64,000 nucleotides of DNA from an uncultured Nitrososphaerota archaeon (GTDB taxonomy: Archaea; Asgardarchaeota; Njordarchaeia; Njordarchaeales; Panguiarchaeaceae): contig CAZWPQ010000003.1 of NCBI GenBank assembly GCA_964636085.1, forward strand, positions 3,015-67,014. Direction: 5' to 3'. Below are positions 11,245 to 22,411 of the stretch, piece by piece (the stretch's first letter is position 1; each line of letters opens with the position of its first letter). Position numbers and translations under genes: made by a program. The notes below the pieces were generated by a model, which ran no database searches, was not told where the DNA came from, and saw only the letters and a program-made list of their open reading frames with translations.

Positions 11245-11376
11245 ATCCAAACCTTTGGATAAGCTATAATATGCAAAAAAGTTTTGGCAATTCTGCTGTG
11301 TGAATGATGGAAAACACATCCCCGATTGCTTGAGAAATGATTTATATTATCTTATCAATTAATTAAAGTAAATTTG

Positions 11377-12042
11377 ATGTCATTATTGGGTCTAAAAAAT
11401 GAAGCAATTGAATGGTTATTGAAAATGTCGGCTCCTAGCAAACTTAAGTTCATGCTGAAGGCCGTGGTTATTGGGGATGGGATGGTTGGGAAGACATCGC
11501 TATGTAATAGGTTTATGAAGAAGGGGTTTACACATGAATATAAACGCACGATTGGTGCTGACTATTATATGTATGATCAGGAACTTGCCCTAGAGGATTA
11601 TGGAGTATCGTTACAGGTTAAATGGATCCTATGTGATTTGGCTGGACAGTTTGCATACTATGAGGTAAGACCATTATTCTATTTTGGCGCCAAAGCTGCA
11701 CTGGTTGTTTTTGACATTTCTAGACCTGAAACATTTAAGTCAATACCAGCTTGGATTTATGAATTTTGGAAATATGCATCCAAGAAGGAATTGTCTAAGC
11801 GCCCAATCGTTATCGTGGGGAATAAGTCTGATCTGAGAGATAAAGTTGAAAATACTGTGTCCAGAGAAACTGCAGAGGGGTATGCTCAAAAGATCGCAAA
11901 GTCTGTTGGTTTTGAGGTACCTTATATTGAAACATCCGCATTGCTTGGTCATGGTGTAGATGAGGCCTTCAAAAAACTTCTACGCGTTGTTATCCGTCAC
12001 TATGGAGTCCTGGACAAATTCAAAAAATTACCCTTGATGTAA
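11377..12042 (+). CDS. Ras/Rab-like small GTPase
   Basis: All five G boxes are present: G1 GDGMVGKTS, G2 KRTIGADY, G3 DLAGQ, G4 GNKSD, G5 ETSAL. A TATA-like TTTATATTAT lies about 27-36 nt upstream of ATG 11377, suggesting a leaderless transcript. About 24 aa precede G1. No C-terminal Cys. Confidence 0.85.
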   Translation: MSLLGLKNEAIEWLLKMSAPSKLKFMLKAVVIGDGMVGKTSLCNRFMKKGFTHEYKRTIGADYYMYDQELALEDYGVSLQVKWILCDLAGQFAYYEVRPLFYFGAKAALVVFDISRPETFKSIPAWIYEFWKYASKKELSKRPIVIVGNKSDLRDKVENTVSRETAEGYAQKIAKSVGFEVPYIETSALLGHGVDEAFKKLLRVVIRHYGVLDKFKKLPLM

Positions 12043-16076: not shown

Positions 16077-16421
16077 TTATTCGAGGGCCAACTCTATATT
16101 AACGTCATATTCCTCTGATCCTAATGCTATTGAGAATATTTTTTCGATGATATCAACAGCCTCGTTCTTGGTGACTAATATTTGCATCATCATGGTATCA
16201 CCTCCAGCTTTTTCAATAATTTCCTGTATTTTAGCGATAGTATCATCGGAGAGATCTCCTTGGACAACGATATTGACTTTATCTGCTTCTCCTGAGTTTT
16301 CCACAGTAATCATAATTTTGCTCTCGGAGGCGTCCGAAATATTGCAAAAAGCACCAATATCTGCAGATGCGACCTTTGAAATTGCTTCCGATATCTTATT
16401 TCTTCTGTCCTCAGAACCCAA
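16077..16421 (-). CDS. hypothetical acidic protein
   Basis: 114-aa ORF with a TTG start, rich in D/E. No motif recognised. Divergent from the V4R gene. Confidence 0.4.
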   Translation of the reverse strand: MGSEDRRNKISEAISKVASADIGAFCNISDASESKIMITVENSGEADKVNIVVQGDLSDDTIAKIQEIIEKAGGDTMMMQILVTKNEAVDIIEKIFSIALGSEEYDVNIELALE

Positions 16422-16532
16422 AAGTTTTCACCACATCTTATCAAAAAATATAAATTAAATTAGGAATGTTTAGTTGAGTATATAGGTTCTATAAAATAAA
16501 CACAAATTACGTTATCTATGTAGGATACATTT

Positions 16533-17186
16533 TTGGTGCTCTTTGATTTCTTTCAACACGGTTTCCGTGTACAATTAGATGGGAGTAGTAGTTTGTATGT
16601 AAAGAAGAAGTTAGGCTGGATATTTAGAACAGAGAAGATAAACATAATTGCGTTCCGCGCCCTAGAGCTTGCAATCGTTCAAGATCTAATGAATAATGGG
16701 AAAAAACCATCCGAGATAAACACATATATGCAACAGTTGGGCCGGTATTTTGGAGATCTATTATATATTGGATATCATGCAAGAGGGGGCGAGGTTGCCG
16801 AGAGCATAATGGAGCTCGGCAAGATAGCGAATTCTTTCTATATTTATCTCTTTGGAGAGGGACTGGACAAGATTTATTATGTGCTTGTGGATAAGGACAA
16901 TAGAGTTGAGCTCCATCTTGTCGCGAACAATGGAATCCCAACGTGTAGGGAGATAGTCTCTCCTCATCCAGAAATTAAGTTTGGATCCTTTATTGTTGGG
17001 GCTGTTATGAGGATGCTGGAATTGAAGAGAGATGAGCTAGAGTATATAGATTTTAGTTGTAGAGAGGAAAAATGCATATCCGTGGGAGATAGCTACTGCG
17101 AGTTGATGATCGACTTTACTTTACCTCCCTCTACATTCTCTAGGATTTATGAAAAATATGGGGGTGAGTATTATGTCAAAAGGTAG
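16533..17186 (+). CDS. V4R-domain protein
   Basis: The C-terminal SCREEKCISVGDSYCELMIDF matches the V4R (4-vinyl reductase) E-x-x-C-x3-G-D-x2-C-x-F/L-x-I pattern. TTG/GTG start. Confidence 0.65.
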   Translation: MVLFDFFQHGFRVQLDGSSSLYVKKKLGWIFRTEKINIIAFRALELAIVQDLMNNGKKPSEINTYMQQLGRYFGDLLYIGYHARGGEVAESIMELGKIANSFYIYLFGEGLDKIYYVLVDKDNRVELHLVANNGIPTCREIVSPHPEIKFGSFIVGAVMRMLELKRDELEYIDFSCREEKCISVGDSYCELMIDFTLPPSTFSRIYEKYGGEYYVKR

Positions 17187-17880
17187 AATGAATAGTACAT
17201 GCATAATTTCTGTAATGACGAGAGCGGGAGTACCAATCGTAACCGTACCAGAGACAAATTCTTCTTCAGTATTCTCCTTACTGGTATACTCCCTTGTTAG
17301 TATATCTGGACATAATAATCATGGGGGCATGGTTAGATATGAGGTTAAAAATAGACTGTTGTTGATAAGAATCCTGGATAAGACCATAATAGCCGTATAT
17401 GCCCCATTCTCCTATGAAAAACAGGTAGAAGCATTCATGCTGGGGATACATGAGCGATTGCATAATATAAACAAATTAATTGTTGAGGAAGGGATGGTGG
17501 ACGGTCAAGTGATAGAGGAAACAAAAGTTGCGGTTTTGTCAATGGCGAGATCCTGTGGGTTACCTATAGATGGAGCATTGAATGTGTTTAAGAGGCTTTG
17601 TGGGGATCTATATAAAGAGGCTATTGATAGAGGGGTTGATGGTTCCGTCTTTAAGGGACTCTTCAGGGTCGCTTATTTTCCCACTCTTATAGATACCGAT
17701 ATACTCAACAAGGAACCGAACGGGCTTGCAAGAGAGATATTAAAAATGTGTGATGGTTGTCATTCGATAAGACAGATAGCAGAGACATATGGTGTTGGTG
17801 AGGCAAAGCTATATAGATTTATTGCCCGCCTAATTAGGGGTGGGAAAATGATACTAGAACTAGGCTATGAACTTATCTAG
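17173..17880 (+). CDS. Roadblock/LC7- or longin-like domain protein with C-terminal helix-turn-helix
   Basis: N-terminus CIISVMTRAGVPIVTV...FSLLVYSLVSISG...VRYEVKNRLLLIRILDKTIIAVYAP follows the beta-alpha-beta-beta pattern of Roadblock/MglB/longin folds. C-terminus ILKMCDGCHSIRQIAETYGVGEAKLYRFIARLIRGGKMIL is wHTH-like. ATG 17173 is preceded by GGGGTGAG and overlaps the end of the V4R gene. Confidence 0.6.
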   Translation: MSKGRMNSTCIISVMTRAGVPIVTVPETNSSSVFSLLVYSLVSISGHNNHGGMVRYEVKNRLLLIRILDKTIIAVYAPFSYEKQVEAFMLGIHERLHNINKLIVEEGMVDGQVIEETKVAVLSMARSCGLPIDGALNVFKRLCGDLYKEAIDRGVDGSVFKGLFRVAYFPTLIDTDILNKEPNGLAREILKMCDGCHSIRQIAETYGVGEAKLYRFIARLIRGGKMILELGYELI

Positions 17881-17978
17881 TGAATGGAATTTTTAATAAA
17901 ACTATTGGTGCATTCCAAATTTATTGATTTTTTTTTGGAAACAAAATTAGGTTTAGTGGGTTTTCACAGTTGGGGGAT

Positions 17979-19376
17979 ATGATAGATTTTCTAAGAGAGG
18001 TATTCAAGGACAATGTAGTGATGGACGAGGACATCAGACATTATTACAGTATAGACGCACAACCTATACGTGGAAGACTTCCCCGCGCTGTAGTATTTCC
18101 AGAGAACATCAATCAGATCCAAAGACTATTAAAGTACGCAAATAAGAACATGACTCCCATTTATGTGAGGGGCGGAGGGACATCCCTTGCAGGGGGGCCC
18201 ATACCAATGTTAGAAGACTCTATTGTCGTTAGTCTCTACAAAATGCGTAGAGTTTTGGAGCTGAGGATGCAGGATTTCCAAGTAAGAGTTGAGGCAGGCC
18301 TAATAATGGATGAACTAAATATATATCTAAAACCCTTTGCCCTATTTTTCCCTGTGGATCCTGGAAGCTCAGCGGCATGCACCATCGGGGGTGCAATTGC
18401 TAATAACTCGGGCGGTGTTAGAGGAGTAAAGTATGGTAATATAAAGGATGGCTGGGTTCTTTCTCTAAGAGTTGTACTGCCCAATGGAAAGATTATCGAA
18501 ACAGGAACCGCAACGTTTAAGGCCGCCGCAGGGTATGATCTTACGCATCTCTTCATAGGTTCTGAAGGCACACTAGGCATAATTGTAGAAGCCACACTCA
18601 AAGTTACAGCAATGCCGAGGTATAAAACTGTCGCAAAGGCATTCTTCAAAGATGAGAAAGATGCAGCTCTATTTGTTGTGGATATTCTACATTCAGGCCT
18701 TGAACCTACCGCAGTAGAATTTTTGGATAGAGACACTTTAGCGGCGATTAGTGCATATAGCGGCTTAAAAGTAGAGGGAAATGCGATGTTGATAATAGAA
18801 TTCACAGGCAACTCTGCGGATGAAGTTAGCGAGAAAATGAGAATCCTATCGAATAAACTTAAGGAGGCAGGCGCATTTAGCATAGAGATAAGCAAAAGCG
18901 AGGAGGAATATAAGAAATTATGGATGATAAGAAAAGCAGCTGCACCATCATTAGGCAACCTGAAGCCCAAATACTTGATACTGGACCCAACGGTACCAAT
19001 ATCGAAAATACCAGATATTATTGAGGCATGTAGAAGAATTGCAGAAAAATATGATCTTAAAATCGCCACTTTTGGTCACGCTGGTGATGGAAATGTTCAT
19101 CCAAATGTATTATATGATCCAAGGGATAAGGATGAATTTGATAGGGCCAAAAAAGCGGCAAGAGAAATAGCCTACGAAACTATTCGTCTTGGAGGCACCG
19201 TATCAGGAGAACATGGAATTGGATTAGAGAAAATCGATACATACGCTACTGAAGCAGGGCCAGATAAACTTGATTTGATGTGGCAAATAAAGAAGTTGTT
19301 TGATCCCGTCGGAATACTCAATCCCTATAAATTCTTTCCGAGCAAGTATTGGGATGAGTTCTATGGAAGAAAATAA
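17979..19376 (+). CDS. FAD-linked oxidase (GlcD / D-lactate dehydrogenase family)
   Basis: FAD-binding RGGGTSLAGG; C-terminal GHAGDGNVHP and GEHGIG motifs. Confidence 0.9.
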   Translation: MIDFLREVFKDNVVMDEDIRHYYSIDAQPIRGRLPRAVVFPENINQIQRLLKYANKNMTPIYVRGGGTSLAGGPIPMLEDSIVVSLYKMRRVLELRMQDFQVRVEAGLIMDELNIYLKPFALFFPVDPGSSAACTIGGAIANNSGGVRGVKYGNIKDGWVLSLRVVLPNGKIIETGTATFKAAAGYDLTHLFIGSEGTLGIIVEATLKVTAMPRYKTVAKAFFKDEKDAALFVVDILHSGLEPTAVEFLDRDTLAAISAYSGLKVEGNAMLIIEFTGNSADEVSEKMRILSNKLKEAGAFSIEISKSEEEYKKLWMIRKAAAPSLGNLKPKYLILDPTVPISKIPDIIEACRRIAEKYDLKIATFGHAGDGNVHPNVLYDPRDKDEFDRAKKAAREIAYETIRLGGTVSGEHGIGLEKIDTYATEAGPDKLDLMWQIKKLFDPVGILNPYKFFPSKYWDEFYGRK

Positions 19377-19533
19377 TGGAATCTATGAGGAAAGCTTTAA
19401 GCTCAGTAATACAATATTGTTAGTTATGTATTATTATAGGGGGATAGCCGAAGGGAGAGACCAAATTAGAGATTTATAAATATTTTTTGAGAATAAAAAT
19501 ATATGGGTATTAACTATATATGAGGGACATGCA

Positions 19534-20445
19534 TTGGCAGAAAGGCGTGTATCATTAGAAGCTAAAAAATTGCAACAAAGGTTTCATCAAGTATATGCAT
19601 TATCGCCATGGGTTAAAAAGGAAGAATTCATTAATAAGCTTCCTAGATACACTAAGAGGATCAAACTCCCGCCAGAGCAGATTCTAGAATTTCTTGGTAA
19701 AGAAAGTGTAGAGGAGGTGGCGAAGAAGCTTAGAACCAGAAATATCCCAATAACGGTGATGGATTTATACAATATACTTGAAAAACTTAGGGATGCTGGA
19801 TACGTTAGAGTAATAACCACAAAAGCTCCAGCAGCTATAGTTGAGGTTAAAGCTGAGGTAATGCCAAAGATAATAGCGCCTCCTGAAGTAATACCTAAAC
19901 CTGAAGAACTGGAAGGTGTCCCACCAGTAGAATTGCCCGTTCCAGAGGCTCCAGCCCCTGAAATCCCTGAGAGGGGTGTTGTTGAAACATTTGAACCCGA
20001 GATAGTAGGTGTTCCGATCGTACCAGAAGCTCAAACACTCGCTCCGGTTGAAATAGTGCAGAAGGTAGAAGAGATCAAAGCCGCTGGTATAGTTGAGAGA
20101 TATTTTGATCTTAACGAGCACCTACAAGCTGTGGTGCTTCTTCCTAGAGAAGGTAATGTTGTGCTTCTATCTATGTATAAAAACGTCAGTTTGGCGGACG
20201 CGGCTGTAGCTGTGGCCTCAACAACAATAGTGTCTCACGCGTGGAATGCATCAGAGACTATAAGGCTTGGCGAATTAAAAGAGTTGATTGTAGAATCGGA
20301 TGCAGGTTTCTTGGTTATGTCTCGTCTCCCTAGGGAGCTTGTACTTGTTGCTTTATTCAGTAAGGGTGTTCCAATAGGTTTGATGATAAGGGACTTTATG
20401 GGTCTGAGGAAGGAGGTAGTAGAAGTTCTAGCAACACTTGAGTAG
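19534..20445 (+). CDS. three-part protein: N-terminal wHTH-like region, Pro/Glu/Val-rich linker, C-terminal Roadblock/LC7 (MglB-like) domain
   Basis: C-terminus LQAVVLLPREGNVVLLSMYKN...AAVAVASTTIVSHAWNASETIRLGELKELIVESDAGFLVMSRLPRELVLVALFS fits the Roadblock pattern. Middle is APPEVIPKPEELEGVPPVELPVPEAPAPEIPE... N-terminus ITVMDLYNILEKLRDAGYVRVI is wHTH-like. TTG start. Confidence 0.65.
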   Translation: MAERRVSLEAKKLQQRFHQVYALSPWVKKEEFINKLPRYTKRIKLPPEQILEFLGKESVEEVAKKLRTRNIPITVMDLYNILEKLRDAGYVRVITTKAPAAIVEVKAEVMPKIIAPPEVIPKPEELEGVPPVELPVPEAPAPEIPERGVVETFEPEIVGVPIVPEAQTLAPVEIVQKVEEIKAAGIVERYFDLNEHLQAVVLLPREGNVVLLSMYKNVSLADAAVAVASTTIVSHAWNASETIRLGELKELIVESDAGFLVMSRLPRELVLVALFSKGVPIGLMIRDFMGLRKEVVEVLATLE

Positions 20446-20455
20446 GTGATTTTGT

Positions 20456-21076
20456 GTGTCGTTTTTCAAAGTAATCTCAGATCTTCAACCGCGGGGCATA
20501 GGATACGCTATTTTGTCCTTAATAATTGAGGATACGGACGAAGTATACATCATAGTTAAGGACGAAGAACAGAAGGAGGTTCTTCGAGATATTTTGATGG
20601 AACTTAAGGATCAATTTGAATCGAGGAGAAGTGAGACCTCCCAATTGAGGCTGAGGAATTTTCAAATACTTACTGAGGAGGAGTACTATTCAAAGTGGGA
20701 GGAGTATGTGGATAAAAGATTGATCTTTGTTGAGAGGGATAGAAACTTGATATCTACCTCGCTGGACAAGATGGGCCTATTTATAGAGTCTATGTGGAGA
20801 GTAAGGGCTAGGGATCCTATTAGAAGGATAGCGCTACATATGGCAGACATACTTGTGGCATTGGATGTAGCTAAGGAGCATTATGCAAAACTCAAGGAAT
20901 TAATTGACAAAGAAATGAATGAGCAGGATCCAAAGGCCAAGAAAAAACTACTGAAAGAAATTGACAAAAAGAAGAGGGAATTGATATCCATGTTCGAAAA
21001 GCGCTTCACGAGGAAAGAGGATATTGACCTAGCATTCGACCTAATTTCCTTTCTTGTTGACCGTGGATATTTATAA
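20456..21076 (+). CDS. hypothetical protein (probably co-transcribed with the Roadblock gene)
   Basis: 206-aa ORF starting 10 nt after the upstream stop. K/E-rich coiled-coil segment plus a C-terminal DLISFLVDRGYL tail. No family recognised. Confidence 0.55.
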   Translation: MSFFKVISDLQPRGIGYAILSLIIEDTDEVYIIVKDEEQKEVLRDILMELKDQFESRRSETSQLRLRNFQILTEEEYYSKWEEYVDKRLIFVERDRNLISTSLDKMGLFIESMWRVRARDPIRRIALHMADILVALDVAKEHYAKLKELIDKEMNEQDPKAKKKLLKEIDKKKRELISMFEKRFTRKEDIDLAFDLISFLVDRGYL

Positions 21077-21086
21077 TTCCATCTCT

Positions 21087-21554
21087 CTAGTCGAATTCTG
21101 CGGCTAGGACCAAAACGCACCCAGTCTTTTTAACTACATGCGTAGTGGATTTTACTAGAGTCCTTTGGATGGGTACCCCCCTTATATTGGCCATCTCTCT
21201 TACCATCTCCATCACTTTCTGCTCGGCAGTTTCCTTGGAGATATTGACATCAGTATATTCTACTACGAGAGTATATCTACTAGTAAAGCCCAAGACTATC
21301 GCACCTGAGATTCTTTGCCCTGTGATGCTAGATACAGTATATGAGTATATTGAAGGCACATTACTCCCTGGAGGAAATTCAGGCGGTTTTTCAACAACAA
21401 CTACATCTGGCGGCAATATTGAGGTTACTTTAATGAGGCTTATCTGGGGCAACCCCGCTTTTACCAAACATGAATCAAATGCGTTTAGAGGAGTAGTCCC
21501 CTCCGATGCTACAGCTGTCACATATACTCTACGTGGAGTAGTCACAACCCCCAT
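21087..21554 (-). CDS. pdaD: pyruvoyl-dependent arginine decarboxylase
   Basis: SEGTTPLNAFDSCLVKAGL and the self-cleavage region LIKVTSILPP (Thr-Ser at the serinolysis site). Size of 155 aa is typical for PdaD. Confidence 0.85.
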   Translation of the reverse strand: MGVVTTPRRVYVTAVASEGTTPLNAFDSCLVKAGLPQISLIKVTSILPPDVVVVEKPPEFPPGSNVPSIYSYTVSSITGQRISGAIVLGFTSRYTLVVEYTDVNISKETAEQKVMEMVREMANIRGVPIQRTLVKSTTHVVKKTGCVLVLAAEFD

Positions 21555-21637
21555 GCTATATCACAGTTTGGTATAGATAATTTTCTTATTAATTCATTGC
21601 GTAAATGTCCAAGGGGGACTTAGGAGGGAAGTACGTT

Positions 21638-22411
21638 ATGACTAGGACTAATATCCTTTATGTAATGGGTTTTGCTGGTTCTGGAAAAACAACGCTTGTG
21701 ACAAATTTTTCTAGGTATCTCTCAAGACAGGGTTATAACACTGCTGTAATTAACTTGGATCCGGGGGTCGAATTATTGCCGTATACTCCGGAGTTTGATG
21801 TAAGGGAAATAGTAAGTCTGAGGGAGGTCATGAGAAAGGAAAATCTGGGACCTAATGGTGGATTGATTAGATCCGTCGAGTATATAGTCAAGAATAAGGA
21901 GAGGGTAATAGAAAAAATAGTATCCATTTCGCAGAATGTGGATTGGTTGTTGGTAGATACTACTGGTCAACTCGAACTATTTGCATTCAGACCATTAGGA
22001 GACATTATTGTAAGAGCATTTATGGATTATCCAAGCGTGGGTCTATTGCTGGTGGATATAACGAATATTCAAAGACCCTCCGATATCGTGATGGCTCAAC
22101 TAATCTGTATGGCTATCCAGCTAAAACTTAGTATCGATACAATCATTGCAATAAACAAGATTGACTTAGCCAACGCTGAAGCCAAAAAGATGATAGAAAT
22201 GTTCTATGTGAATCCTGAAGAATTTAGGAATATAATGATGGAACAACATACTGATACTTTTTCTGGCATGTCTATTGATTTGCTGGATACCATAAGGAAT
22301 TACATGCCACCAGCCCGCATAGTTCTTATTAGTGCAAAAAATGGGGAAGGATTTGATGAACTGTATGATATAATACATGAAGTATTTTGCACGTGTGGGG
22401 ATTTAACGTGA
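21638..22411 (+). CDS. GPN-loop GTPase
   Basis: Walker A GFAGSGKTT, then NLDPG, the GPN loop LGPNGG, and NKxD as AINKIDL. ATG 21638 is preceded by a TAGGAGGGA SD. Confidence 0.85.
   Translation: MTRTNILYVMGFAGSGKTTLVTNFSRYLSRQGYNTAVINLDPGVELLPYTPEFDVREIVSLREVMRKENLGPNGGLIRSVEYIVKNKERVIEKIVSISQNVDWLLVDTTGQLELFAFRPLGDIIVRAFMDYPSVGLLLVDITNIQRPSDIVMAQLICMAIQLKLSIDTIIAINKIDLANAEAKKMIEMFYVNPEEFRNIMMEQHTDTFSGMSIDLLDTIRNYMPPARIVLISAKNGEGFDELYDIIHEVFCTCGDLT

What the first reader, a model, noticed from the sequence alone, without database searches (positions are those of the whole stretch)
16533..22411. Cluster of V4R, two Roadblock/longin-like HTH proteins and a GPN-loop GTPase: candidate GTPase-switch regulatory module
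Five genes within 6 kb encode folds known to regulate or act as small NTPase switches. First pair: a V4R protein (16533..17186) translationally coupled to a Roadblock/longin-like + wHTH protein (17173..17880). Second pair: a wHTH / Pro-Glu linker / Roadblock protein (19534..20445) followed 10 nt later by an unknown 206-aa partner (20456..21076). The fifth gene is a GPN-loop GTPase (21638..22411). A Ras/Rab-like GTPase lies 4.5 kb upstream (11377..12042). Roadblock/MglB proteins act as GAP/GEF partners of Ras-like GTPases, and Roadblock, V4R and small GTPase genes are reported to co-occur in archaeal operons. Here the Roadblock modules are fused to DNA-binding-like domains and no GTPase is encoded in cis. 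That suggests a GTPase-controlled transcription or positioning switch whose wiring has not been characterised. An unrelated GlcD-like gene and pdaD interrupt the set, so this is a loose neighbourhood, not a single operon.
Basis: partly seen in the sequence, partly recalled or inferred. Interest (0 to 1): 0.7.

Follow-up and report, generated by a model that had tools for sequence, protein, structure and literature searches.

The report
Archaeal TRAPP-like and Roadblock gene pairs
A heat-loving Asgard-type archaeon (Njordarchaeia) carries two small conserved gene pairs built from the protein folds that eukaryotes use to control trafficking GTPases, each joined to a DNA-binding-like domain. The nearby GTPase genes are neighbours and are not shown to be partners.

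Summary
All ORFs exist at the stated coordinates and every fold call survived testing.

- **p1** (16533-17186) is a Cys4 V4R-superfamily protein. Its family profile sits closest to TRAPPC3/Bet3.
- **p2** (17173-17880) overlaps p1 by 14 nt. A confident AlphaFold2 (AF2) model shows a longin-type domain, two helices and a winged helix-turn-helix (wHTH), the architecture of NPRL2/3.
- **p4** (19534-20445) is a basic wHTH-like domain, a Pro/Glu/Val linker and a full Roadblock domain.
- **p5** (20456-21076) is confidently modelled but matches no known fold.

The five genes are not one module.

- p1-p2 and p4-p5 are separately conserved pairs within Njordarchaeia.
- V4R/TRAPPC3-like genes sit next to proteins carrying the p2-type wHTH in two deeply diverged loci. 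In one of these the partner is a full-length p2 homologue. In one protein a longin-like region is fused to the V4R domain.
- The GPN-loop GTPase is adjacent only in the closest relatives, and the Rab-like gene only sometimes.
- The "interrupting" GlcD-like oxidase is the steadiest neighbour of p1-p2, and pdaD of p4-p5.

My best reading is two heteromeric regulatory platforms of TRAPP / GATOR / Ragulator type that act on GTPases encoded elsewhere. A ligand-sensing transcription-factor reading is nearly as likely. I rate it a new variant of a known Asgard theme, of moderate interest.

The parts
16533..17186 (+). p1: TRAPPC3/Bet3-like V4R-superfamily protein, 217 aa, with exactly four Cys (C138, C176, C181, C189)
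   Evidence: ORF. A phmmer search of 1.84 billion representatives gave 18 relatives. The profile of these hits TRAPPC3 6aq3_A at 1.5e-16, Thor-TRAPPC3 7yh3/7yh2 at about 1e-15, Bet3 at 1.6e-9 and MJ1460 V4R at 0.01. Of 18 members, 15 hit Pfam V4R and 4 hit Pfam TRAPP. Cys count.
16490..16499 (+). AT-rich TATA-like box (tataaaataa), 34-43 nt upstream of the p1 start. A candidate promoter of the p1-p2 pair.
   Evidence: Read directly from the sequence. Weak evidence, because the genome is 61% A+T. Not tested.
17173..17880 (+). p2: 235 aa (243 aa from the alternative ATG at 17149). Longin-type domain at residues ~11-127, helix 136-152, wHTH 157-235.
   Evidence: AF2 model: pLDDT 87.5, pTM 0.83, order b-b-a-b-b-b-a-a then wHTH. 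Every listed Foldseek PDB hit is a Roadblock/longin-superfamily protein or a complex containing one. Weak HTH Pfam hits lie at residues 187-224.
17160..17186 (+). p1/p2 junction. GGGGTGAG (17160-17167) includes a GGTGA 5 nt before the p2 ATG at 17173. The p1 stop TAG is at 17184-17186, giving a 14-nt overlap.
   Evidence: Overlaps of 11-17 nt or gaps of at most 26 nt recur in L002, L004, L006 and L015.
17970..19376 (+). GlcD-like FAD-linked oxidase. The steadiest neighbour of p1-p2. Membership in the p1-p2 unit is not shown.
   Evidence: Pfam FAD-oxidase_C 2.7e-70 and FAD_binding_4 5e-40. TIGR00387 scored 418.6 bits, below its 567.9 cut-off. Synteny. A T9 run at 17928-17936 lies between the p2 stop and this gene.
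19534..19833 (+). p4 N-terminal basic wHTH-like domain (residues 1-100, pI 10, net charge +9)
   Evidence: Weak Fur/TrmB/MCM-WH Pfam and PDB hits, E from 0.009 to 0.26. Charge. The fold was not modelled.
19834..20073 (+). p4 Pro/Glu/Val-rich acidic linker (residues 101-180; P16, E17, V15; net charge -12)
   Evidence: Composition. This is the part of the alignment that varies in length and sequence.
20074..20445 (+). p4 C-terminal Roadblock/LC7 domain (residues ~181-303)
   Evidence: PDB 9jue_D (MK-D1 Roadblock3) at 7.8e-5 from the single sequence and 1.9e-5 from the profile. Thor Roadblock 7f8m at 6.7e-5. cvnB5 at 0.039. Pfam Robl_LC7 hits 8 of 8 family members, best 5e-4, below the curated cut-off.
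20445..20458 (+). p4/p5 junction. GGTGA at 20445-20449 overlaps the last base of the p4 stop. The GTG start of p5 is at 20456, leaving a 10-nt gap.
   Evidence: The gap is 10-12 nt in L001 and L006-L014.
20456..21076 (+). p5: 206-aa partner of p4. Small a/b domain (about residues 1-118) followed by long helices (121-202). No known fold match.
   Evidence: AF2 model: pLDDT 88.6, pTM 0.83. Foldseek best E was 0.07 against PDB and 0.28 against BFVD. No Pfam, NCBIfam or PDB sequence hits. There are 11 homologue clusters at 59-92% identity.
21087..21554 (-). pdaD (pyruvoyl-dependent arginine decarboxylase), convergent on p5. A constant neighbour of p4-p5. No functional link is shown.
   Evidence: The p4-p5-pdaD trio occurs in the window, L001 and L006-L015.
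21605..22411 (+). GPN-loop GTPase (alternative start at 21638). A neighbour only in the closest relatives.
   Evidence: PF03029 at 1.1e-52 and PRK13768 at 7e-59. Motifs GFAGSGKTT, LGPNGG, DTTGQ and NKID are in the translation. Synteny.
11374..12042 (+). Rab-like small GTPase, 4.5 kb upstream. Not consistently linked to either pair.
   Evidence: Pfam Ras at 5.5e-38. Best PDB hits are Rab7 at 3e-30 and Thorarchaeota Rab at 5e-29. It has no C-terminal Cys. It lies near p4-p5 in L009-11 but not in L006 or L012-15.

Best explanation
The region holds two independent bicistronic modules that are restricted to Njordarchaeia and closely related contigs.

Module A
- It is a TRAPPC3/Bet3-like V4R-superfamily protein (p1, with a probable Cys4 metal site) translationally coupled to p2.
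- p2 is a longin-type domain followed by helices and a wHTH. This is the domain order of the eukaryotic GATOR1 subunits NPRL2/NPRL3.
- I infer that p1 and p2 form a heteromer. Bet3-family and longin folds are the two folds that build the eukaryotic TRAPP core.

Module B
- It is p4 (basic wHTH-like domain, long acidic Pro/Glu/Val spacer, full Roadblock domain) and p5, which starts 10 nt downstream and has a confidently predicted but unmatched fold.
- I infer that p4 dimerises through its Roadblock domain and binds p5.

Most likely mechanism (inferred, not shown)
- Each module is a dimeric Roadblock/longin platform that regulates or recruits a small GTPase encoded elsewhere in the genome. That is how MglB, Ragulator, GATOR1 and TRAPP work.
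- The wHTH serves as a tether or partner-binding module. In p4 the partner is possibly nucleic acid, given its charge of +9.
- p1 may add a small-molecule input.

The GPN-loop GTPase, Rab-like GTPase, GlcD-like oxidase and pdaD are neighbours through lineage synteny. None is shown to be a component.
For: Shown: folds
- p1 family profile against PDB: TRAPPC3 at 1.5e-16, Thor-TRAPPC3 at about 1e-15, Bet3 at 1.6e-9, TRAPPC6 at 3e-4, TRAPPC5 at 2e-3 and classical V4R MJ1460 at only 0.01.
- Pfam V4R hits 15 of 18 members and Pfam TRAPP hits 4 of 18.
- p1 has four Cys, all in the C-terminal region that aligns with the Cys-containing segments of TRAPPC3, Thor-TRAPPC3 and Pfam V4R. Thor-TRAPPC3 and PoxR bind Zn through four Cys (PMC10933270).
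- p2 AF2 model has pLDDT 87.5 and pTM 0.83, with longin order b-b-a-b-b-b-a-a. This matches the published definition of longin topology.
- All listed Foldseek PDB hits for p2 are Roadblock/longin-superfamily proteins or complexes containing them. The top ones are chains of GATOR1/SEA complexes aligned over 244-292 columns.
- A distant p2 homologue hits Pfam HTH_NPRL3 (0.003) and the sigma-adaptin longin family (0.008).
- NPRL2/3 are an N-terminal longin domain plus C-terminal wHTH (PMC3747258). NPRL2-like proteins are already reported in Asgard archaea.
- p4 Roadblock domain.

Shown: linkage
- p1 and p2 are adjacent or overlapping in every locus where both could be seen.
- L016-18 carry two V4R/TRAPPC3-like genes followed by a full-length p2 homologue (blastp 8e-14).
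- L030-32 carry a 241-aa protein with the p2-type wHTH (hhalign 97%, E 1.6e-11) 43 nt upstream of a V4R gene.
- P0024 fuses a longin-like N-terminal region to a p1-like domain. A Heimdall longin-TRAPPC3 fusion is published.
- p4-p5 are 10-12 nt apart in L001 and L006-L014. This includes the type genome of the genome-reduced Panguiarchaeum symbiosum.

Precedent
- MfpC is an HTH-fold protein, encoded in the same conservon as a Roadblock protein, that acts as a GEF and not as a DNA binder (PMC11343762).
Against: - No GTPase is encoded in either pair, and no GTPase neighbour is conserved.
- No complex prediction could be run, so p1:p2, p4:p5 and any GTPase contact are inferences from gene order and one fusion.
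- p2's wHTH gives its weak Pfam and PDB hits mostly to prokaryotic DNA-binding families (TrmB, HTH_24, IclR, Rrf2, ArsR, LrpA). The p4 N-domain is strongly basic. Both fit plain transcription factors.
- V4R domains in bacteria are ligand sensors of transcription activators.
- p1-p2 nearly always sits next to the GlcD-like gene, as local regulators do.
- All relatives come from one narrow lineage, so conserved order partly reflects shared descent.
- The sequence-level link of p2 to the longin and NPRL families is below threshold for the window protein itself.
Confidence: 0.45

Rival explanations
1. The pairs are ligand-sensing transcription regulators. p1 (V4R) binds a small hydrophobic or hydroxy-acid ligand. 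p2 binds DNA through its wHTH and controls the adjacent GlcD-like oxidase gene. In the same way, p4 binds DNA through its basic wHTH and is modulated by p5. No GTPase is involved, and the Roadblock/longin domains serve only as dimerisation or sensor modules.
For: - p2's wHTH resembles prokaryotic DNA-binding wHTH families. All hits are sub-threshold but consistent: TrmB 1.6e-4, HTH_47 1.9e-4, Rrf2 6.5e-4, LrpA 0.007.
- The recognition-helix stretch AKLYRFIA is nearly invariant in the close family.
- The p4 N-domain has pI 10 and net charge +9.
- The GlcD-like gene lies directly downstream on the same strand, 3-90 nt away, in 10 loci. It is divergent upstream in 4 loci.
- Bacterial V4R domains sense phenols in PoxR and MopR, and Thor-TRAPPC3 has ligand-like cavities.
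- The deeply diverged pairs sit beside different genes, including transporters, as local regulators would.
Against: - The p1 family is far closer to eukaryotic and Asgard TRAPPC3 than to bacterial V4R sensors (1e-16 against 0.01-0.06).
- The best structural matches of p2 are GTPase-regulator subunits.
- p2's wHTH is nearly neutral (net +1).
- L009-11 keep the GlcD-like gene without p1-p2 nearby.
- A T9 run separates p2 from the GlcD-like gene.
- HTH folds next to Roadblock proteins can be GEFs, and the wHTH domains of NPRL2/3 are not known to act as DNA binders.
Confidence: 0.3
2. The two pairs, the adjacent GPN-loop GTPase and/or the Rab-like GTPase 4.5 kb upstream form one GTPase-switch module. 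The GTPase state, read by the Roadblock/longin domains, controls DNA binding or positioning.
For: - All of the folds are present within 11 kb.
- The order p1-p2-GlcD-p4-p5-pdaD-GPN recurs in L006-8.
- A Rab-like gene again lies 5-6 kb from p4-p5 in L009-11.
Against: - The GPN gene is missing from this position in L009-L015. The Rab-like gene is missing in L006 and L012-15. The two pairs occur apart (L002/5 against L009-14).
- The arrangements that do recur belong to close relatives at 76-100% identity, where order is inherited.
- From general knowledge, GPN-loop GTPases dimerise and have no reported Roadblock/longin regulator.
Confidence: 0.1
3. The pairs are structural or scaffolding proteins unrelated to GTPases and transcription. 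They might be lipid or hydrophobic-ligand carriers (p1 cavity) tethered by p2, or a spacer-tethered assembly factor (p4-p5). The fold resemblances would reflect shared ancestry and not shared mechanism.
For: - Tran et al. propose ligand binding or transport for Asgard TRAPPC3-like proteins, and saw no membrane targeting.
- p5 has no recognisable fold.
- Longin and Roadblock domains also have roles unrelated to GTPases.
Against: - Nothing specific supports this reading. It is a default.
- The repeated pairing with a wHTH domain is not explained by a carrier role.
Confidence: 0.15

Closest known systems
Asgard TRAPPC3-like proteins (Thorarchaeota TRAPPC3, PDB 7yh2/7yh3; Tran et al. 2024, PMC10933270) and the eukaryotic Bet3/TRAPPC3 subunits of TRAPP
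   Same: - The p1 family profile matches them over nearly the whole domain, at 1e-15 to 1e-16.
- p1 has four Cys in the region where Thor-TRAPPC3 binds Zn.
- It is partnered with a longin-type protein, as in the TRAPP core and as in the published Heimdall longin-TRAPPC3 fusion.
   Different: - The Thor proteins were studied as stand-alone homodimers, with no operon partner described.
- Here the partner carries a wHTH, which no TRAPP subunit has.
- No Rab GEF activity or complex has been shown.
- p1 alone does not reach significance against either Pfam family.
NPRL2/NPRL3 (GATOR1) and the NPRL2-like longin proteins reported in Asgard archaea (Liu et al. 2021 preprint, 10.1101/2020.10.19.343400)
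   Same: - An N-terminal longin domain followed by a C-terminal wHTH.
- The best Foldseek hits are chains of GATOR1/SEA complexes aligned across the full length.
- A distant family member hits Pfam HTH_NPRL3.
   Different: - p2 is much shorter (235 aa) and has a single wHTH.
- No sequence-level match exists for the window protein.
- No DEPDC5-like partner is seen.
- p2 is paired with a V4R/TRAPPC3-like gene, which is not a GATOR1 feature.
- The reported Asgard NPRL2-like families are in Thor and Loki, not Njordarchaeia.
MglB / Asgard Roadblock proteins (MK-D1 Roadblock3 9jue, Thor Roadblock 7f8m) and Ragulator LAMTOR subunits
   Same: The p4 C-terminal domain is a full Roadblock domain by sequence. 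By analogy it should dimerise and offer a GTPase-binding platform.
   Different: - p4 has an N-terminal basic wHTH-like domain and an 80-residue acidic Pro/Glu/Val spacer.
- No MglA-like or Rag-like gene is adjacent.
- Its operon partner p5 has an unmatched fold.
Actinobacterial conservons (CvnA-D / MfpB-E)
   Same: - They combine a Roadblock protein (GAP) with an HTH-fold protein (DUF742, a GEF) to run a small GTPase.
- The p4 Roadblock domain weakly matches CvnB5 (0.039).
- The HTH of one distant relative weakly matches DUF742 (0.039).
   Different: - Here the Roadblock/longin and HTH parts are fused in one polypeptide.
- There is no histidine kinase and no GTPase in the operon.
- The DUF742 similarity is not significant.
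Prokaryotic V4R sensor domains (PoxR/MopR, MJ1460)
   Same: They share the superfamily and a Cys-rich metal site. 15 of 18 family members hit Pfam V4R.
   Different: The profile similarity is much weaker than to TRAPPC3 (0.01-0.06 against 1e-16). p1 is a stand-alone protein and is not fused to an AAA+ or HTH output.

Membership tests
TRAPPC3/Bet3 family within the V4R superfamily (p1) | Significant sequence or profile similarity over the whole a/b domain | tested here: met
   The profile of 18 relatives matches 6aq3_A at 1.5e-16 (profile positions 13-176 of 197), 7yh3 at 8.9e-16 and Bet3 3cue_D at 1.6e-9. The single sequence alone is not significant: Pfam V4R E=0.2, and a 3-sequence profile against TRAPPC3 gave E about 1.
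TRAPPC3/Bet3 family within the V4R superfamily (p1) | Cys4 Zn site and internal cavity, as in Thor-TRAPPC3 and PoxR | tested here: inconclusive
   p1 has exactly four Cys (138, 176, 181, 189), all in the C-terminal region that aligns with the Cys-containing segments of TRAPPC3, Thor-TRAPPC3 and Pfam V4R. No structure of p1 was predicted, so site geometry and cavity are unknown.
TRAPP complex (function) | Assembly of Bet3-family and longin subunits, with Rab GEF activity | not testable with these tools
   The only proxy is genomic. There is a 14-nt overlap with the longin-type p2. V4R/TRAPPC3-like genes sit next to p2-type wHTH proteins in two deeply diverged loci, and there is one fusion.
Longin / Roadblock superfamily (p2 N-domain) | Five-stranded sheet with b-b-a-b-b-b-a-a order (longin: no N-terminal helix, two C-terminal helices) | tested here: met
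   AF2 DSSP elements: E11-16, E21-25, H31-45, E53-58, E61-67, E71-78, H79-102, H111-127, at pLDDT 87.5. All listed Foldseek hits are proteins of this superfamily or complexes containing them, with TMt 0.6-0.65 to LC7 and Roadblock chains. Topology definition.
Longin / Roadblock superfamily (p2 N-domain) | Sequence-level match to a curated longin, Roadblock or sybindin family | tested here: not met
   The window protein has no Pfam, NCBIfam or PDB sequence hit in residues 1-130. One distant homologue hits Clat_adaptor_s at 0.0077.
NPRL2/NPRL3 (GATOR1) | N-terminal longin plus C-terminal wHTH architecture | tested here: met
   Model. Architecture of NPRL2/3 from PMC3747258. The top Foldseek hits are chains of 363-461 residues in GATOR1/SEA complexes. 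That these chains are NPRL2/3 is inferred from their lengths.
NPRL2/NPRL3 (GATOR1) | Sequence homology to the NPR2, NPR3 or HTH_NPRL3 families | tested here: inconclusive
   Only one distant homologue (L016, 246 aa) hits HTH_NPRL3, at E=0.003 and below the cut-off. The window protein and family profile give nothing.
NPRL2/NPRL3 (GATOR1) | Catalytic Arg finger and a DEPDC5-like partner | not tested
   No alignment to NPRL2 was available.
Roadblock/LC7 (MglB-like) (p4 C-domain) | Sequence similarity to Roadblock domains | tested here: met
   9jue_D at 7.8e-5 (single sequence) and 1.9e-5 (profile), and 7f8m_A at 6.7e-5. Pfam Robl_LC7 hits 8 of 8 members, best 5e-4, all below the 23-bit cut-off.
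Roadblock/LC7 (MglB-like) (p4 C-domain) | Cognate small GTPase gene adjacent, as in mglAB or conservons | tested here: not met
   There is no Ras-, Arf-, Rag- or MglA-like gene next to p4-p5 in any of 15 loci. The GPN gene is adjacent only in the closest relatives.
GPN-loop GTPase (21605-22411) | Full-length PF03029 match, GPN motif and the G1, G3 and G4 motifs | tested here: met
   PF03029 at 1.1e-52 over residues 20-262. The translation contains GFAGSGKTT, LGPNGG, DTTGQ and NKID.
Rab-like small GTPase (11374-12042) | Ras-family core closest to Rabs | tested here: met
   Pfam Ras at 5.5e-38. Best PDB hits are Rab7 at 3.3e-30, Thor-Rab at 5.3e-29 and Ypt7 at 1e-25.
Rab-like small GTPase (11374-12042) | C-terminal prenylatable Cys | tested here: not met
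   The protein ends ...KFKKLPLM. Other Asgard Rab-like proteins also lack this Cys.
Actinobacterial conservon | Four-gene operon: histidine kinase, Roadblock, DUF742 and small GTPase | tested here: not met
   No kinase and no operonic GTPase. The DUF742 hit is only E=0.039, in one distant relative.

The most novel reading that the evidence does not exclude
Module A would be a minimal archaeal proto-TRAPP. In this reading a Bet3-like:longin heteromer acts as a nucleotide-exchange platform for an Asgard Rab-like GTPase. The heteromer exists in single, duplicated-Bet3 and fused versions. The wHTH would couple GTPase state to DNA or to another partner. Module B would be a second, lineage-specific Roadblock platform whose partner p5 represents a new regulator fold.
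Probability: 0.15. Interest if true: 0.85.

Novelty: new variant of a known kind. Interest (0 to 1): 0.5.

Why it matters
Asgard genomes are full of Roadblock, longin, TRAPPC3-like and small-GTPase genes. These are rarely in operons, so nobody can say which proteins work together (Tran et al. 2024).

**What this locus offers.** A V4R/TRAPPC3-like gene is tightly coupled to a longin-wHTH gene. The V4R pairing with a p2-type wHTH protein recurs in two deeply diverged loci, and one protein fuses a longin-like region to the V4R domain. This is a concrete, testable candidate for a pre-eukaryotic Bet3:longin assembly, the core of TRAPP. The proteins are small and come from a thermophile, which suits expression and crystallography.

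**The p4-p5 pair.** It adds a Roadblock protein with an unusual tethered layout and a partner of unknown fold. The pair is retained even in the genome-reduced Panguiarchaeum, which suggests an important function.

**If the rival is right.** The result would still be useful. It would show eukaryote-like trafficking folds serving as sensor modules of ordinary archaeal transcription factors. That would caution against reading Asgard eukaryotic signature proteins as evidence of membrane trafficking.

Tried and rejected
- **p5 as a second Roadblock or V4R protein.** hhalign of the p5 family against the p4 and p1 families gave nothing. The AF2 topology is b-a-b-a-b plus long helices. Rejected.
- **p5 fold identification.** Foldseek found no match in PDB or BFVD. 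Pfam on all 11 members gave only scattered noise. The PDB profile search gave nothing.
- **p2 as a homologue of p4.** hhalign shows only a weak HTH-like stretch. The two are different families.
- **The 303-aa gene preceding p1 in L002 as a p4 orthologue.** BLASTP found no similarity. Rejected.
- **Sequence-only identification of p2.** PDB profile searches with 5 and 9 sequences gave only weak HTH and LrpA hits.
- **N-domain of the L030 241-aa protein.** Its sequence pattern looks Roadblock-like, but Pfam and PDB gave no support. Left open.
- **Wider sampling of p1 relatives.**
  - The genome-contig scan returned one locus.
  - The metagenome scan with the diverse alignment failed for lack of conserved stretches.
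  - With a closer alignment it returned nine short contigs of close relatives.
- **Other relevant genes in the window.**
  - Rfam found no RNA families.
  - The family HMM and phmmer searches found no paralogues of p1, p2, p4, p5, the Rab-like gene or the GPN gene elsewhere in the window.
  - The 25 families listed from a Pfam scan of 53 other ORFs are metabolic, with many glycosyltransferases.

Full report
**1. What is in the sequence**

| Label | Coordinates | Note |
|---|---|---|
| p1 | 16533-17186 | |
| p2 | 17173-17880 | longest ORF starts at 17149 |
| GlcD-like oxidase | 17970-19376 | |
| p4 | 19534-20445 | |
| p5 | 20456-21076 | |
| pdaD | 21087-21554 | minus strand |
| GPN-loop GTPase | 21605 or 21638 to 22411 | |
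| Ras-family GTPase | 11374-12042 | |

- The p2 ATG at 17173 is preceded by GGTGA and overlaps the p1 stop by 14 nt.
- p5 starts 10 nt after the p4 stop, again behind a GGTGA.
- Pfam and NCBIfam confirm the annotated genes:
  - GPN-loop PF03029 at 1.1e-52.
  - Pfam Ras at 5.5e-38.
  - FAD-oxidase_C at 2.7e-70.
  - pdaD TIGR00286 at 5.9e-33.
- The same searches give only sub-threshold hints for p1 (V4R, E=0.2), p2 (HTH families, about 1e-3) and p4 (Robl_LC7 0.02, FUR 0.009). They give nothing for p5.

**2. Organism**

- Homologues are very few.
  - p2 and p4 have 4 and 8 clusters among 5.8 billion proteins.
  - p5 has 11 clusters.
  - p1 has 18 representatives among 1.84 billion.
- Named relatives are "Candidatus Njordarchaeota" (P0008, P0041) and "Candidatus Korarchaeota" (P0040). 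One GTDB representative is labelled "Nitrososphaerota".
- Contig JANJXX010000001 of GCA_024720975.1, which carries p4-p5, is the type genome of Panguiarchaeum symbiosum. A 2025 study places that organism in the class Njordarchaeia of Asgard archaea and explains the Korarchaeota labels as a compositional artefact (PMC12411855).
- The window is therefore from a Njordarchaeia-type thermophile.

**3. p1 is a TRAPPC3/Bet3-like member of the V4R superfamily**

- The 18 relatives of p1 were aligned.
- Scanned one by one, 15 hit Pfam V4R (best 2.4e-9) and 4 hit Pfam TRAPP (best 1.1e-6).
- Their profile gave these hits against PDB sequences:

| Target | E-value |
|---|---|
| TRAPPC3 6aq3_A | 1.5e-16, nearly full length |
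| Thorarchaeota TRAPPC3 7yh3 / 7yh2 | about 1e-15 |
| Bet3 | 1.6e-9 |
| TRAPPC6 | 3e-4 |
| TRAPPC5 | 2e-3 |
| Classical V4R MJ1460 | 0.01 |
| MopR | 0.06 |

- p1 has exactly four Cys (138, 176, 181, 189). They lie in the C-terminal region that aligns with the Cys-containing segments of TRAPPC3, Thor-TRAPPC3 and Pfam V4R. Thor-TRAPPC3 and PoxR bind Zn through four Cys (PMC10933270).
It can be sharpened to TRAPPC3-like.

**4. p2 is a longin-type domain plus wHTH**

- AF2 on a four-sequence alignment gave pLDDT 87.5 and pTM 0.83.
- The order is b-b-a-b-b-b-a-a (residues 11-127), a further helix, then a wHTH (157-235).
- Lacking an N-terminal helix and having two C-terminal helices is the published definition of longin as opposed to Roadblock topology.
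- Every listed Foldseek PDB hit is a Roadblock/longin-superfamily protein or a complex containing one. These include dynein LC7 (TMt about 0.62), MglB, MK-D1 Roadblock3, Thor Roadblock, AP sigma subunits, the VAMP7 longin domain and a Lokiarchaeota longin domain.
- The top-ranked hits (E about 2e-4) are chains of 363-461 residues in GATOR1, KICSTOR-GATOR1 and SEA complexes, aligned over 244-292 columns. From their lengths and the composition of those complexes, I infer these chains are NPRL2/NPRL3.
- NPRL2/3 consist of an N-terminal longin domain followed by wHTH repeats (PMC3747258). NPRL2-like proteins have already been reported in Thor and Loki archaea.
- A deeply diverged p2 homologue (L016, 246 aa) gives weak hits to Pfam HTH_NPRL3 (0.003) and to the sigma-adaptin longin family (0.008).
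- The window protein itself has no sequence-level match to any longin or NPRL family. Membership is therefore structural only.

**5. p4 and p5**

- The C-terminal third of p4 is a Roadblock domain by sequence.
  - MK-D1 Roadblock3 9jue_D scores 7.8e-5 (single sequence) and 1.9e-5 (profile).
  - Thor Roadblock 7f8m scores 6.7e-5.
  - CvnB5 scores 0.039.
  - All 8 family members hit Pfam Robl_LC7 below the cut-off.
- Residues 1-100 of p4 are strongly basic (pI 10, net +9). They give weak Fur, TrmB and MCM-WH hits.
- Residues 101-180 of p4 are an acidic Pro/Glu/Val spacer that varies among homologues.
- p5 was modelled with pLDDT 88.6 and pTM 0.83 as a small three-stranded a/b domain plus long helices.
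- Nothing similar to p5 was found.
  - Foldseek found no match in PDB or BFVD.
  - Sequence searches found nothing.
  - Profile comparison with the p1 and p4 families found nothing.

**6. Synteny**

I built HMMs of the four families and scanned all ORFs of 29 fetched loci. Gene-caller tables supplement this.

- **(a) p1 and p2.** They are adjacent or overlapping wherever both could be seen: the window, L002-8, L015, L021-25 and L027-29.
- **(b) Deeper divergence.** V4R/TRAPPC3-like genes sit next to proteins carrying the p2-type wHTH.
  - L016-18 have two V4R/TRAPPC3-like genes (28-30% identical to p1) followed by a full-length p2 homologue (22% identity, E 8e-14).
  - L030-32 have a 241-aa protein 43 nt upstream of a V4R gene. 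Its C-terminal 64 residues are homologous to the p2 wHTH (hhalign 97%, E 1.6e-11).
  - P0024 fuses a longin-like N-terminal region (weak: Pfam Longin 0.16, hhalign in register 0.048) to a p1-like domain.
  - That fusion parallels the published Heimdall longin-TRAPPC3 fusion.
- **(c) p4, p5 and pdaD.** They form a constant trio in the window, L001 and L006-L015, including Panguiarchaeum.
- **(d) Separation of the pairs.** L002 and L005 have only p1-p2. L009-L014 have only p4-p5.
- **(e) GPN gene.** It is adjacent only in the window, L001 and L006-8.
- **(f) Rab-like gene.** It lies within 5-6 kb only in the window and L009-11.
- **(g) GlcD-like oxidase.**
  - It lies directly downstream of p2 in ten loci, on the same strand and 3-90 nt away.
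  - It is divergent upstream in four loci.
  - A T9 run in the window's 89-nt spacer leaves co-transcription open.

**7. Interpretation**

- *Shown.* The folds of p2 and p5 from AF2 models. The family assignments of p1 and of the p4 Roadblock domain from sequence. The tight and repeatedly conserved pairing within each module.
- *Not shown.* Any physical complex, any GTPase contact, or any DNA binding.
- *What points to a GTPase-regulating platform.*
  - A Bet3-family protein paired with a longin-type protein is the composition of the TRAPP core.
  - Longin plus wHTH is the layout of the GATOR1 subunits.
  - Roadblock dimers are GTPase platforms in MglB, Ragulator and conservons.
  - MfpC shows that an HTH-fold protein encoded in the same conservon as a Roadblock protein can be a GEF.
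- I therefore favour heteromeric GTPase-regulating or GTPase-recruiting platforms whose GTPases are encoded elsewhere (confidence about 0.45). This fits the published remark that Asgard GTPases are generally not in operons with their putative regulators.
- The main rival is a ligand-sensing transcription-factor pair (about 0.3).
  - The wHTH of p2 resembles prokaryotic DNA-binding families.
  - The N-domain of p4 is basic.
  - V4R domains sense small molecules in bacteria.
  - p1-p2 sits beside the GlcD-like gene.

**8. Novelty**

- Roadblock, longin, NPRL2-like and TRAPPC3-like proteins are well-known Asgard eukaryotic signature proteins.
- I did not find the following described:
  - The operonic coupling of a TRAPPC3-like gene with a longin-wHTH gene, together with its deeply diverged and fused counterparts.
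  - The Njordarchaeia-wide wHTH-spacer-Roadblock plus p5 pair.
- This is a new variant of a known kind. It is of moderate interest, mainly because it names specific small proteins with which a pre-eukaryotic Bet3:longin assembly can be tested.

Noticed in passing
window 17970-19376 and the 17881-17969 spacer: The GlcD-like FAD oxidase is the most constant neighbour of the p1-p2 pair. It lies downstream on the same strand in ten loci and divergent upstream in four. A T9 run (17928-17936) sits between p2 and this gene, so it is unclear whether the three genes form one transcript.
   Followed up: partly
window 16077-16421 (-): A 114-aa acidic protein (pI 4.2) with no family match is conserved in all relatives. 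It travels with the GT4 and DUF354 glycosyltransferase genes and not with p1, although here it is divergent from p1 across a 111-nt spacer.
   Followed up: partly
L013 9083-11141 (GCA_024720975.1, Panguiarchaeum symbiosum type genome): The p4-p5-pdaD trio is retained in a genome-reduced Njordarchaeia member. p5 is 59% identical to the window protein.
   Followed up: partly
L016 4435-6366 (also L017, L018): Two tandem V4R/TRAPPC3-like genes are followed by a p2 homologue. The layout recalls the several Bet3-family paralogues of TRAPP. The next genes are a 302-aa unknown and a 421-aa protein carrying an HELLHEWW (HExxH-like) motif. The taxon of these contigs is unknown.
   Followed up: partly
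L030 4233-5528 (also L031, L032): A 241-aa protein with a Pro-rich linker and the p2-type wHTH lies 43 nt upstream of a V4R gene. Its HTH gives a weak DUF742 (CvnC/MfpC) hit (E=0.039). Its N-terminal domain looks Roadblock-like from the sequence pattern, but this was not confirmed.
   Followed up: partly
L019 2077-3126 (P0024): A 349-aa protein fuses a longin-like N-terminal region to a p1-like V4R domain. It is flanked by TnpB-like (Cas12f1-like_TNB) genes.
   Followed up: partly
window 11374-12042: The Rab-like GTPase has no C-terminal cysteine (it ends KFKKLPLM). It also has an N-terminal extension of about 25 residues before the P-loop.
   Followed up: no
P0008, P0040, P0041, L005: Taxon labels of close relatives disagree (Njordarchaeota, Korarchaeota, Nitrososphaerota). 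This mirrors the published dispute over where Njordarchaeia belong.
   Followed up: yes
window 1-64000: No Rfam family reaches threshold anywhere in the 64 kb. Among the 25 families listed from a Pfam scan of 53 other ORFs, glycosyltransferases are the most frequent (five group-1 GT hits), alongside ordinary metabolic genes.
   Followed up: no
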